Origin: Elusimicrobiota bacterium
GTDB lineage: Bacteria > Elusimicrobiota > Elusimicrobia > Elusimicrobiales > UBA9959
Assembly (NCBI GenBank): GCA_037137395.1
Contig: JBAXKK010000044.1
Location: 1 to 20,549 of the forward strand
DNA: 20,549 bases
Direction: 5' to 3'
Shown: in pieces, positions 1 through 20,549 of the stretch
Position numbering within the stretch: the first letter of the stretch is position 1
Layout: every line of letters starts with the position of its first letter
Position numbers: made by a program

Positions 1-3000
1 CCCCCACTTTGACCGTGTATGACAGTTTATGATGGACCGGGTTGCCCGTGTGGCACCATAAGTTGTGGGGTCAAATCGGGGGCCGGCAATGTTCTTACAG
101 ATACACCAAAACCTATACTTCGAAGTTGGCTAACGCCTGAGAGAATGCTATTGTGGGGCAAAGTTCTGTATAATGTTTTTGGGGCTAAATATTGCATTTT
201 GAAATCTGTTTCTCTCATTTTGGAGGGGTTTTATGGACAAACTGAAGATTCTGGTAGTTGAAGATGAAAATCCGGCACAGGCGGTCATGGCGGCCCAGTT
301 GACAGGCCATACAGTGGACTTCGCAAAAGATAAAAAGACCGCCCAGAAAAAACTGGCTGGCGGTTCTTATGATCTATGCTTCCTGGACTTAATGCTGGGA
401 CTTGATGATGATTATTCGGGTTTGAAACTTATCGCGGACGCCAGATCAAGAGGGTTTTACTCCGTGGTTATGACAAGCTCGGATTCAGACGATATCATAA
501 ATAAGGCCTATGAACTCGGCTGTGACGATTTCTATATCAAAGGCAACGAAAAAGCAAATATCAGCGCCGTCATCGCCAAATACCTGCAGCGCGGGACAAG
601 CGGGAACCTTAACAAAGTCTTCTCCGAGGAGTTTATAACCGAAGACCCGGCAACGCGCGCCAACGTCACCGAAGCGCTTAAATACGCGGCCTCCGGCTCC
701 CCCATCCTTATTCTTGGCCCGACCGGCACAGGCAAAACCTGCCTGGCCCGGATAATACACAAGCATTCAGGGCGCGCTGGTGAATTCGTTTCCATGAACT
801 GTTCGGCCTATACCGAGGACCTCATGGAAGCGGAACTCTTCGGCTACCGGAAAGGCGCATTCACCGGAGCCAATGAAACCAGAAAAGGCCGGTTGCTCCA
901 GGCCAGTAACGGAACCTTATTTCTGGACGAGATAGGCTCCATGAGCCTTAACATGCAGACCAAGCTGCTTAAAGCCATTGAGGAGAAATCCTTTTACCCA
1001 CTTGGCTCCGATAAACCGGAACATTCCGATTTCAGAATCATCAGCGCCACTTTGGAAGACCTGCAAGCACTTATAACGCAAGGCAAGCTCAGGTTGGACT
1101 TCTTTCAGCGCATACACGGGTTTACCGTAACTTTGAAACCGCTGCGGGAACGCAAAGATGATATTTTCCCCCTCATACGGCAATTCACGCGCGGCGCGAG
1201 GCAGCTTTCATTCGCGCCGGACGCCAAAACTTTCATGCTTCAGTATGAATGGCCTGGCAATATACGGGAATTGAAGAAGCTGGTAGACCTGCTTGTTTCG
1301 GGCGCGGAAAACCGCGTCACGCTTGAAGCCATCCGTAAGCACCTTTCACAGGAACTTAAGCCCCTGCCGCCCGGCGGCTTCCTTACGGACGCGCAGTATA
1401 AATATGCCGTGGAAAACGGCCTGGACAGCGCGTCTGAACTGTTTACCTACGAGATAATCCGCCGCAATATGCAGGAATACAACAGTAACAAAAGCAAGGT
1501 AATGACCAATCTTAAGATCTCCACTAACCTGCTTTATGCCAGGTTAAAGAAATTCGAGCCAAACAAGGGGACTGAATCAGATGGAATCAAATCTTGTGGA
1601 AAGAAAACTGCTTCATAAAATCCGTTCGCAATCCGCAAGCCTTAAAACCATTGCGGAAATGTTCAAGACCGGCACCGCTGAGAAAAAGCTGGAATTGCTT
1701 GCCCTTATGAAGGAAGCAGGGCAGGATATAATGGATTGCCTGTCCCGGCTTGAGAAGGATTTAAAAGCCTAACTCCAGGGCGGAGTTTTGTCTATCACTT
1801 TAAGCCAGGGTAAGTGAGCGAAATCTTCCGGCATGTGGCCGGTCTCAAGCGTTATATTGTTATAACCTTTATTGTGCAAATCCTGCGCGATATTCTCGCC
1901 TTTAACGCCGTCCTCCTCGTCGTCCAGCTCTGAATCAAGATAAATAGGCGTCTCTTTGGGGAATTCTTCTATCCGGGCGAGAAAATCGGTCGGATTGTCG
2001 AAGATAACGAGCTTTACGCCTTTTGCTTCCGCGACTAATTCCCAACTCATGCGGGCCACTTTATCATCATCCACTAAAATGGCGTCCACCTGGCCGGGGA
2101 CAGAAACAGCTTCCGGTTTTGCATCAGACTTTTGAATCGTTATCGGAACCAAGCTTGCCAGGCCCTTGTGTATCATCCGCACTTTTAAGCGTTTGCATTC
2201 GTCAATTATGCGCTTCTCTTCGCAGCGACTGGTGACCAGTATTGTTTTACCACACAGGTTTAATTCCTCGGCAAGGCTCAAGCCGGTTTCTTTATAACCT
2301 ACAAGCTCATAGTCAAAAAGACAAACGGCGGTTTGAGCTTCGGCCGCATTGTTTCTTATCCATTCGCGCAATTTGTCCGGCTCGCTGAAATGAATGGCTT
2401 CAATACCGTGCTCCTTAATTCTTGCCGATTCAAACCGGCCATCCCATACCTGATGAATAGTGGCGTCATCATCCAAGACTACCACAGGCCGGCCCGGAGG
2501 AAGCTTAAGCACAGCCACAAATCCTTCCGGCGCCGACGCTTTGGGCAGTTTTATCGTAACCGTCGTCCCTTTCCCCAGCTCTGACGTTATGTTTAGGTTG
2601 CCGCCCCAGCTTTCCGCCGTAGTCCGCGCATGATACAAACCTAAGCCCGAACCGCCGGCTTTGCCGTGCGTCTCACCCCTTTGGCCCAGTTTGGCCAGGA
2701 TTTCAAGCGGAATTCCTTTGCCGTTGTCGGTTACTGTTAAAACGACATTTCCCGCATCCTGGCCTAACTCCACAGACACCTTACCTTTATCGCCCAATAC
2801 TTCAACGGCATTATTCACCAAATTAGACACCATGCGTCTGAATTCAACCGGCTGTATCCTAGCGAATAGGCCGTAGGATTCCTGTGTTAACTCAAAATCG
2901 ATATTGATGCCGGGCTTTGATTCAAATTGCAGGCGTTTCTCGGTGATAACCGGATCTATTATGCTTGAAAGCAGGCGCGTTGCCGACGATTCTTTGTTTT

Positions 3001-18000: not shown

Positions 18001-20549
18001 GCTAAAACCGAATTTATGGAATTTGCTCATAGCCTCACCTACGCATATTATAGCCGTTATGCAAAAATGGGGCAATTTTTACGGCAGAGTTAGGGGGGCC
18101 AGATGACTTGGATATGAGACTGAGTGCTCGTCTGTATCTGATAGCCTTTTCCCTCAAACAAACATACGAATAGTTTTGCGGCAACGTAAACCGGCTATAC
18201 TGCGAATATGCTTGAGATAAAAAATCCCCGATTTCTCGTCGAGGATTTTTAAAAGTAGGCGGGTCGCTGGCTAGACCAAGTTAGAACCTGTTTGATTACG
18301 GTTTAATGCGTTTGTGAGTAGATGCTTCAAAAAAATTGCGGACTGGCTTTGGGATATTAAGATGTCAAGAACCGGCCCCGGTGCGGTTTTAAATAATTAC
18401 AGCTGTAGGCCATCTGCTGCGTTTGTTAGGGGCCTTTCGGCCCTGTCGGTAGATGTCACCGCAACGTAAACTATTGTGCCGGGTTTCTGCATTAGGAGAA
18501 TGAACTTATGAGAGTAGTTGCTGCAGCGGTCTTTCTTGTCGGGATTTTCATTTTATCAGCTGTCTCTTCCAAGGCAGAGAATAAGATAATTTACGGGGAG
18601 GATGACCGCGTGGAATACTATCAGGTACCCGAAAAATTCAGAGCAGCATCCGACTCTATAGTATCAATTTGGATGAAAGATCAAGTTGCGCAGTCCACAG
18701 CCGATGGGGATTATGTCCTATCCGCGCCGCCCATCATGGAGAAGCAGAATCTCTGCCCGGGGGTCAGGTTCAGGGAGCAGCCGTCCGGTCCCTTCTGCTC
18801 CGGCACGCTTGTTGGAGAAGACTTGGTATTGACCGCCGGTCATTGCATAAAAAGTAAAGCTAGCTGCCAAAACAGGGCTTTTGTTTTCGGTTATGCGTTA
18901 AGAGCCGCGGGAGAGCCTGTCACCCTGCGGGCCGGTGCCGATGACGTCTATTACTGTTCCAAGATCGTGAAACTTATGTTTGAGAAAACGACTGTGCCCA
19001 ACAGCGATGGCCAACCACAGACCATTTACGGTCAGGATTTCGCCCTGATAAAACTGGACCGTAAAGTAATCGGCAGGCAGCCTCTGGCCGTGAACCGCGC
19101 GGGCGGAATTTCTGAAGGTGCCCCGGTAGTGTCGATGGGATACCCGCTGGGACTTCCATTAAAGTTTTCGCAGACCGGCACAGTCTTTAAACCGGTTGAT
19201 AATGGTAACGCCTATTTTACGACAAACCTGGACACTTTCGGAGGGAATTCCGGCAGCCCGGTATTTAACGCTGTTACCGGTCTTATGGAGGGAGTGGCTG
19301 TCAGGGCTGACAATGATCATTTCCTTACAACTTCTGAAGGCTGCCAGGTGTACGTAGTTAAGCCGCAGACCAGCGGGACAGGTGTGATCGTTAATAAACT
19401 GGACCTACTTCTCAACGATATTCCTGCCGCTCCGGAAGAAGCGGCGGCTGGGGTGACCCTAGATGGCACCAGCCGTCTGGAATTTCCGGAAGAAGTAACG
19501 GTCGGGGCGGCCCTGGATGCCGCCAATCATCTGGGAGATCCGACGCAGATTGACATAAACTTTGACTTCTGAAATCCGGCAGTTAATAATGGGTACTAGG
19601 TACAGTTTAAATAGATTTTGATCTTTCCACATTACTTTGTTTTGGACAATCCGCCAAAATCGTTTCCCCCACTCACATCCTTCCCTTTGCGGTTAGAAAA
19701 CGTAACCCATATCTACTGAGGCGCTTATGTCTATCGGCTTGCTCAACGGGGGATTGAGAGTTTTGGTGAGGAATTGGAGTATCCCTTCTGTTTTTCCCAT
19801 TATGGCCTCGTGAGCTAAAAGGGTAATGGTTTCGCCGGGTTTCCAGGGAGTGGTGTCGCTGGGGTGCGTAACGAGGGTGGCACCAACGGGTGATCCTAAA
19901 AGGTCTGTTATTGGGCCATTCTTACCCTTAACGGCGAAGTACACGTGAACGGGTTTTTTGAATGAATATTTAGTGTTGTTGGTGGCCCGTGCTGTTACGA
20001 GAACTTCTCCCACAAAGCCTATTCCCTTTTTATTCTTCCCTGTAAGGAGCAACTCTATCCCAAATGGTTTGCTGGTAGATTTTAGCTCAGCCTGCGCAAC
20101 TTTGTCCATCGAACTGTTTGTGAATGGATCGGCTTTTTTGCAGGACGTGCATAACGTCGTTGCGACCGACAAAATTATCCCGATTAAATAATACCGCGTT
20201 GTTTTTGAGTTCATGTTTTCACCAGTATGTAAAAGGTTATCGCTATTGGGCTATTATAACTCATTAGGTGCACTGAGCATATTAAAGCTTAACACTTCTT
20301 CCCTGCTTATCTCCCCCAAAAAAACGACAGTCGAAGAGCGGCTGTCGTAGAGGATAAATGAATCTAGTGGGTGCCTTCCAGGCCGAATTGCGAACCTACT
20401 TCGCCCAACACCCAGAGGAAACGTTGTAGCGAAGGAGTCCCGAGCTTATCCGCGAGATGTCGTCGCAGGCGTGGCCACGCAGCGCGGCCCCGCACTGTTA
20501 ACGCCAGTCTTGTAATGTACCGGTTTAGTCGGTGTTAAGTGTACCAGCC

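What a model noticed while it worked through the whole genome (the two positions that open the first line are those of the whole stretch)
233..18100. Natural altered-specificity sigma-54: RpoN-box Arg->Gln paired with GC instead of GG at -24
The only intact sigma-54 (C44:16972-18030, 352 aa) has Gln at the second RpoN-box arginine (SRQSVAQYR; E. coli R456), and the promoters of its own gene and of the peptide/radical-SAM operons beside it read TGCYRT-N3-AATTGC, with GC where sigma-54 promoters have GG at -24. Among relatives the Gln form goes with GC promoters and the Arg form with GG promoters, and two genomes hold both forms: a naturally orthogonal sigma-54 that runs an island with its own enhancer-binding protein and kinase.
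Evidence so far: Five sites on C44 upstream of g01466, g01465, g01462, g01458, g01457; strict pattern found nowhere else in the genome. 37 related loci: with a pattern neutral at the tested base, 4 Gln loci (own included) give 11 of 12 sites GC, 33 Arg loci give 35 of 38 GG. Gln and Arg copies share assemblies JBAYJD (L075, L104) and CAZYFL (L076, L078). Activator g01451 keeps GAFTGA; a 23-codon remnant of an Arg-type copy lies at C24:15007-15075, and only 1 GG-type site is left in the genome.
(Added by a program. Inside this text positions count along the whole contig: contig position 1 is position 1 of the stretch shown here. "Call 12" and the like, gene names such as g00115 and contig names such as C1 are that model's own, and its searches are not shown. 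The text may have been shortened before it was handed on; [...] marks where a part breaks off. The agent that wrote the report below was given it as the finding of a first reader that could run no searches.)

Follow-up and report, generated by a model that had tools for sequence, protein, structure and literature searches.

The report
Natural sigma-54 variants with recoded promoters
In these uncultured bacteria a gene-switching protein (sigma-54) has lost an arginine thought never to change, and the DNA letter it reads has changed with it in the switches it appears to control, suggesting nature has already built the private gene switches that engineers recently made in the lab.

Summary
Largely confirmed, and wider than reported. 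The window's sigma-54 (Elusimicrobiota) has Gln at E. coli R456. Four sites, not five, read TGC where relatives read TGG; the fifth is sigma-70-like. In 83 loci, Arg-Arg copies give 68 of 68 GG sites and Gln copies 17 of 17 GC. The seven Gln copies are one clade under purifying selection, but two older promoter classes both switched. Separate lineages repeat the link: another Gln pairs with GA, Pro with GT, Trp tentatively GT (one site each); loss of the first Arg goes with non-G one base earlier (17 of 19 sites). Liu et al. 2025 engineered R456 changes that move exactly this base and wrote that no other residue occurs in nature. Against strict orthogonality: their R456Q was not among mutants that lost GG activity, the activator looks shared, and there are no transcription data. 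Best reading: altered specificity that shields island promoters from resident Arg-type sigma-54. No earlier scan note of this was found.

The parts
16972..18030 (-). rpoN, short Elusimicrobiota-type sigma-54, 352 aa
   Evidence: PF04552 45.7 bits, cut-off 22.8; PDB sequence and Foldseek top hits all sigma-54; only copy in genome
17014..17040 (-). RpoN box SRQSVAQYR; Gln333 (codon 17032-17034, CAG) = E. coli R456
18072..18086 (-). GC-type -24/-12 site before rpoN; its TTGC doubles as the -35 of a sigma-70-like promoter (17 bp to TATAAT at 18047-18052), possibly an autoregulatory operator
   Evidence: orthologous GG site in Arg sister G335:C92; role inferred
16822..16836 (-). GC-type sigma-54 promoter of peptide A / radical SAM operon
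   Evidence: GG at the same place in Arg sisters L038, L039, L041
12061..12075 (-). GC-type sigma-54 promoter of peptide B / radical SAM-SPASM operon
8486..8500 (-). GC-type sigma-54 promoter of peptide C
8097..8125 (-).
16944..16957 (-). Candidate upstream activator sequence (TTTTCAAATGAAAA-like), also at about 12183-12197 and beside bEBP genes in relatives
   Evidence: function inferred
16672..16767 (-). Cys-bearing peptide A (31 aa from the ATG), likely precursor
   Evidence: no family hit
15172..16668 (-). radical SAM/SPASM peptide maturase-like
   Evidence: below equivalog cut-offs
13871..15175 (-). MFS transporter
12283..13791 (-). double SAM methyltransferase
11811..12017 (-). Cys-bearing peptide B (68 aa), likely precursor
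10543..11904 (-). radical SAM/SPASM
9321..10580 (-). MFS transporter
8618..9331 (-). GNAT acetyltransferase
8262..8444 (-). peptide C (60 aa, hydrophobic N-terminus)
6998..8073 (-). peptide D (7888-8073) and radical SAM (6998-7891; best NCBIfam hit YydG-type epimerase, below cut-off)
1769..7064 (-). serine hydrolase (PF00144), unassigned 491-aa protein, hybrid histidine kinase
   Evidence: order kept in relatives
233..1772 (+). receiver-AAA+ enhancer-binding protein (GAFTGA at 208, Walker A GPTGTGKT) and 63-aa partner
   Evidence: only bEBP in genome

Best explanation
A working sigma-54 of a mobile peptide/radical-SAM island lost the RpoN-box arginine that reads the second G of the -24 element; its promoters followed by putting C there. 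Shown in sequence: residue, sites, covariation, selection. Known from engineering: this residue sets this base. Inferred: Arg reads G; Gln accepts a base with a major-groove amino group (C here, A in a second lineage); the bEBP, switched on by the kinase relay, opens the three cargo promoters; the site before rpoN overlaps a sigma-70 -35 and probably serves autoregulation. Result: the island's promoters are largely closed to resident Arg-type sigma-54 (one-way insulation); whether the Gln form also ignores GG promoters is open. It is one case of a family-wide code in short Elusimicrobiota sigma-54s: first Arg with -25, second Arg with -24.
For: 83 loci, pattern neutral at -26/-25/-24: Arg-Arg 68 of 68 sites GG (42 of 63 loci have a site), Gln 17 of 17 GC (6 of 6 loci); chance 1.7 sites against 105 seen. 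Gln clade dN/dS 0.06-0.18, dS 0.26-0.70, CAG fixed, sisters CGT. rpoN promoter flanks match a GG ortholog at 24-26 of 30 bases but GC cargo promoters at mean 14 (max 17): at least two separate G-to-C changes or conversions. Independent lineages at the bEBP-divergent promoter: Gln/GA (G305), Pro/GT (G369; a 19-row protein clade), Trp/GT tentative (G078); first-Arg loss: 17 of 19 sites non-G at -25 while 19 of 19 keep G at -24, and an Arg-Arg copy nested in that clade has GG. In genomes with both forms GC sites lie by Gln copies and GG by Arg copies. G000 has lost both the Arg copy and family-type GG sites. Liu et al.: R456Y/M/W/F prefer GC, H GA, L GT; wild type gives 4-5% on GC versions of PnifB.
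Against: No transcription or binding data. R456Q was built but not among the seven mutants that lost GG activity (Fig. 3A values unseen). Wild type gave 41-76% on GC versions of PnifE. The GC pairing is one Gln origin; cargo sites are mostly duplicates (11-row clade) and all 17 share C at -9 against 10 of 63 GG sites. The other second-Arg lineages rest on one site each. Exceptions: GA cargo sites beside Arg copies in G423 and G335:C92, TGG with a Thr-Arg box (L127), a TTG site by an Arg-Arg copy in AT-rich G032, 2 GG sites with Cys-Arg. Pfam finds no activator-interaction or core-binding domain.
Confidence: 0.74

Rival explanations
1. Relaxed, not redirected: Gln simply stops reading -24, any base works, and C spread by founder effect, duplication and co-transfer of the rpoN-promoter cassette. 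The Gln form still fires GG promoters; any insulation is a by-product.
For: R456Q not among GG-dead mutants; a second Gln lineage has A; C at -9 travels with GC; cargo promoters are copies of each other; G309's Gln copies are mosaics at a tRNA-Val site; first-Arg variants show mixed A/T/C/G.
Against: Two promoter classes older than the Gln change both took the same C; 17 of 17 sites keep C across dS up to 0.70 while flanks diverge; none has drifted to A, T or back to G.
Confidence: 0.2
2. The Gln protein no longer starts transcription; the sites act as sigma-70 extended -10 elements (TG-C-TATAAA-like) or as plain repressor operators.
For: The 8486-8500 site reads like an extended -10 (motif recalled); the site before rpoN overlaps a sigma-70 -35; R456A cannot bind -24 (PMC7175178).
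Against: TTGC and the exact -24/-12 spacing are kept in all 17 sites; whole gene under purifying selection; the genome keeps one bEBP with GAFTGA and no other sigma-54 for it.
Confidence: 0.05
3. Assembly or binning artefact.
For: G000 has 7.7% contamination.
Against: An independent assembly (L086) is 100% identical over the 4,056 bases around rpoN and in all 15 window proteins it covers; seven distinct Gln copies.
Confidence: 0.01

Closest known systems
Engineered orthogonal sigma-54 R456H/Y/L (Liu et al. 2025, PMC12096077)
   Same: Same residue, same base (second G of GG); R456Y/M/W/F choose GC; R456H reads both GA and GC versions of PnifB, as Gln pairs with both in nature; activator shared.
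   Different: Laboratory mutants of E. coli RpoN; Gln was not followed up; the paper states the Arg is 100% conserved and no other residue has been found. First-Arg variants were not obtained in the sections I read.
Specialised RpoN paralogues of Cereibacter (Rhodobacter) sphaeroides (PMC11999139)
   Same: Several sigma-54 copies in one genome serving separate gene sets.
   Different: There discrimination is at promoter position -11 plus private bEBPs; here the base after TTGC is T in most GG and GC sites alike and the change is in the -24 GG with an RpoN-box substitution.
Canonical sigma-54/bEBP systems (E. coli RpoN, A. aeolicus sigmaN, PDB 5UI5)
   Same: RpoN box, HTH, -24/-12 spacing, GAFTGA activator.
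   Different: 352 aa, far below the TIGR02395 cut-off (42.7 vs 277), box SRxS[IV]xQYR, activator Walker A ends in Thr, regulon confined to islands.

Membership tests
sigma-54 (RpoN) | C-terminal DNA-binding domain (HTH + RpoN box) | tested here: met
   PF04552 45.7 bits over cut-off 22.8; E 1.6e-8 to 5UI5
sigma-54 (RpoN) | Overall fold | tested here: met
   Model pLDDT 74; the 30 best listed Foldseek rows are all sigma-54, best E 2.7e-7, TM only 0.22-0.37
sigma-54 (RpoN) | Invariant RpoN-box Arg456 | tested here: not met
   Gln; this is the finding
sigma-54 (RpoN) | Region I activator-interaction and core-binding domains | tested here: inconclusive
   No Pfam hit; equivalog cut-off not reached; N-terminal helices conserved in the family
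sigma-54 (RpoN) | -24/-12 promoters with fixed spacing | tested here: met
   Same 15-base frame as the GG sites of relatives
sigma-54 (RpoN) | bEBP- and ATP-dependent initiation | not testable with these tools
   bEBP with GAFTGA present; activity untested
Orthogonal sigma-54 (Liu 2025 type) | Substitution at 456 with changed second G | tested here: met
Orthogonal sigma-54 (Liu 2025 type) | Mutual non-recognition with Arg-type sigma-54 | not testable with these tools
   Indirect only: site segregation in three dual genomes; R456Q not among GG-dead mutants
Cereibacter-type specialised RpoN paralogues | Discrimination at position -11 | tested here: not met
   T follows TTGC in most sites of both types
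Cereibacter-type specialised RpoN paralogues | Private cognate bEBP | tested here: inconclusive
   G210 has one bEBP per system, but a 90% identical bEBP in G309 lies by a GG site

The most novel reading that the evidence does not exclude
Elusimicrobiota carry a natural radiation of sigma-54 paralogues with a readable two-residue/two-base code (Arg-G; Gln-C/A; Pro-T; Leu/Ser/Ala/Cys-T/A at the neighbouring base), by which mobile peptide islands evolve mutually orthogonal, private transcription channels that coexist in one cell: the first natural escape from the universal -24 GG and a ready toolbox of orthogonal sigma-54s, including first-Arg variants not obtained by engineering.
Probability: 0.45. 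Interest if true: 0.9.

Novelty: new variant of a known kind. Interest (0 to 1): 0.82.

Why it matters
The -24 GG and the RpoN-box arginines are treated as invariant; a 2025 paper says no other residue has been found at R456 and asks why evolution never used the alternatives that work in the laboratory. These loci show it did, several times, and keep intermediates (dual genomes, mosaics, a deleted Arg copy), so the co-evolution of a sigma factor and its promoters can be traced and tested with an existing E. coli reporter. Promoter predictors built on GG would miss these regulons.

Tried and rejected
Fifth site: rejected as sigma-54. GTDB-wide scan for canonical boxes with a non-Arg second residue (blind to Gly, Cys, Trp, AGY-Ser and divergent flanks): 9 hits, none a lineage with changed promoters: 5 SAR86 78-84-aa Lys frames, 1 Pacearchaeota Lys protein, 2 His and 1 Leu singletons. 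Metagenome scan: 8 hits, 2 not sigma-54, 3 re-assemblies of known loci, 2 new Gln loci, 1 truncated Gln remnant of another lineage without promoter. No RNA holder listed, so no reads were laid. Tree of promoter flanks is poorly resolved (4 changes, starred branches force only 1), so I rely on pairwise flank identity. A loose genome-wide pattern was swamped by chance. No site found for the Pro-Arg copy G273:C4. The crystal-structure paper on base contacts is not held; no paper on rpoN autoregulation surfaced in the listing, so that idea is recalled. DNA context for other variant proteins (P0183, P0235, P0237, P0238, most of the Pro clade) could not be obtained. No complex prediction was run.
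Full report
Observation. The window is contig C44 of a 2.7-Mb genome; source names of the closest proteins say Elusimicrobiota. The ORF at 16972-18030 (-) is a 352-aa sigma-54: PF04552 over its cut-off, PDB sequence hits to A. aeolicus and E. coli RpoN, and a model whose 30 best listed Foldseek rows are all sigma-54, though with low TM-scores. The alignment sets SRQSVAQYR on ARRTVAKYR, so Gln333 is R456. 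The genome has one sigma-54 domain and one bEBP and a 23-codon Arg-type remnant on C24 whose end and flank match the resident copy of a same-genus genome. The strict pattern gives four sites, all in the window. The fifth is not a sigma-54 site: its -24 half is not kept in two other Gln loci, and it lies within a TTGAAG-17-CAGAAT arrangement shared by Arg and Gln loci (sigma-70 consensus recalled). An independent assembly is identical (L086).

Covariation in close kin. I searched 401 genomes of the phylum (157 with a match), fetched regions around the best island-type copies, and added two new Gln loci from a metagenome scan. On 83 loci, with a motif free at -26, -25 and -24 and at most two mismatches elsewhere, Arg-Arg loci gave 68 of 68 sites GG (21 of 63 loci had no site) and six Gln loci gave 17 of 17 GC; resampled sequence of the same size gives 1.7 sites. 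A scan that included extra contigs gave 63 GG and 2 GC outside Gln loci, both GC from Gln-bearing genomes. In 392 genomes of the class, a strict non-G pattern gave 38 hits: 10 at islands of substituted sigma-54s, 28 scattered, against 23 for the reversed control. G210, G335 and G309 hold both forms, with GC sites by Gln copies and GG by Arg copies or elsewhere; Arg-only G339 has 7 GG and 0 GC, G340 5 GG and one degenerate GC.

One event or many. The seven Gln copies form one clade (100/99) nested among Arg copies, spread over three genera; the codon is CAG against CGT in the sisters; dN/dS is 0.06-0.18 at dS 0.26-0.70. But the site before rpoN and the cargo promoters are two older classes, each present with GG in Arg sisters; the rpoN site matches its GG ortholog at 24-26 of 30 downstream bases and GC cargo sites at a mean of 14. 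At least two G-to-C changes, or short conversions, occurred.

Independent replicates. More distant copies supply them. At the promoter divergent from the bEBP gene, which is GG in eight Arg-Arg loci read by eye (two more had no clear site), G305 (another family, 42% identity, Gln) has GA; G369 (Pro) has GT and belongs to a 19-row protein clade with Pro (17), Ala or Ser at that place; G078 (Trp) has a more deviant GT site. Each is a single site. Thirteen loci lack the first Arg (Cys, Leu, Ser, Ala, Pro): 17 of their 19 sites have A, T or C at -25 while all 19 keep G at -24, genome-wide scans agree, and an Arg-Arg copy nested among them has GG (box residues masked). Exceptions: GA cargo sites beside Arg copies in G423 and G335:C92, TGG with a Thr-Arg box, two GG with Cys-Arg, and a TTG site in AT-rich G032. 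Among 134 cluster representatives with a readable box, 109 are Arg-Arg and 9 lack the second Arg, whereas a GTDB-wide scan of canonical boxes found only 9 non-Arg hits, Lys or singletons (blind to four residue types). The variation is thus concentrated in this short sigma-54 family.

Mechanism. Known: the RpoN box sits in the major groove at -24 and R455A or R456A cannot bind (PMC7175178, passages). Liu et al. 2025 (PMC12096077; I read section 13, part 3 of 7 of the text, the Discussion, passages, a supplement search and supplement parts 3 and 4; figures unseen) showed that R456Y/M/W/F prefer GC, H GA and L GT at the same base, and wrote that the Arg is 100% conserved. Their tables give wild type 4-5% on GC versions of PnifB but 41-76% on PnifE, and R456H firing both GA and GC. 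R456Q was built but is not among the seven that lost GG activity. Inference: Gln accepts bases with a major-groove amino group (C, A), Pro and Leu favour the T methyl (chemistry recalled, not modelled). The receiver-bEBP (GAFTGA intact; Walker A ending in Thr as in 82 of 94 motif hits in these loci, overlaps included) would open the three cargo promoters in front of peptide/radical-SAM operons. The site before rpoN overlaps a -35 that is 17 bases from TATAAT in both forms, which suggests autoregulation (recalled precedent; one search listed no direct paper). A bEBP 90% identical to this one lies by a GG site in G309, so insulation, if any, is at the sigma-promoter step. The lineage looks mobile: G309's two Gln copies are mosaics beside tRNA-Val, and G000 has lost both its Arg copy and family-type GG sites.

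Comparison and novelty. It works like the engineered R456 variants and is a divergent member of the sigma-54 family that fails the 'invariant Arg' feature. The nearest natural precedent is Cereibacter, whose paralogues differ at -11 and by activator (PMC11999139, passages). A 2025 regulon survey has no mention of Elusimicrobia or the RpoN box (PMC12316311, passages). Searches listed no report of a natural substitution at these arginines; the library lacks most subscription papers. Scan notes: one related note on the kinase relay, none on this feature.

Verdict. Real, selected and repeated across lineages; altered specificity likely (0.74), relaxed specificity the main rival (0.2), full mutual orthogonality unproven. 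New variant of a known kind, interest 0.82.

Noticed in passing
L076, L080-L083 (SAR86 genomes): A 78-84-aa frame holding only the RpoN-box domain, with Lys at R456, is kept in five SAR86 genomes; possibly a stand-alone DNA-binding remnant of sigma-54.
   Followed up: no
L075:1179-1220: A Pacearchaeota contig encodes a 328-aa protein ending in an RpoN-box-like motif with Lys at the second Arg.
   Followed up: no
L114, L118-L120, L122, L125, L177-L181: First-Arg substitutions (Cys, Leu, Ser, Ala) paired with A/T/C at -25; many of these and their Arg-Arg neighbours also have TTGA instead of TTGC at -12.
   Followed up: partly
L121 / G369:C9 and P0121-P0138: Old clade with Pro at R456 (60-97% identity); the one locus with DNA has GT.
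   Followed up: partly
window 716-739 (bEBP Walker A): Family bEBPs end Walker A in Thr rather than the acidic residue typical of bEBPs (82 of 94 motif hits).
   Followed up: no
base after TTGCTC in all GC sites: C at -9 in 17 of 17 Gln sites against 10 of 63 GG sites: shared ancestry or a second determinant.
   Followed up: partly
L037:2236-2310 and 11743-12798: Two Gln copies 9 kb apart in G309, each behind tRNA-Val sequence, with Arg-type N-termini (one also an Arg-type HTH): recombinant cassettes.
   Followed up: partly
G281:C22, C65, C69: Three AG-type sites in a genome where no sigma-54 was found with this query (89% complete).
   Followed up: no
L091:508-846: Truncated 3' remnant with Gln in a distant lineage, no promoter nearby.
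   Followed up: yes
L038:1726-2763 (G339:C86): Nearest Arg-type sister copy is interrupted by two stops.
   Followed up: no
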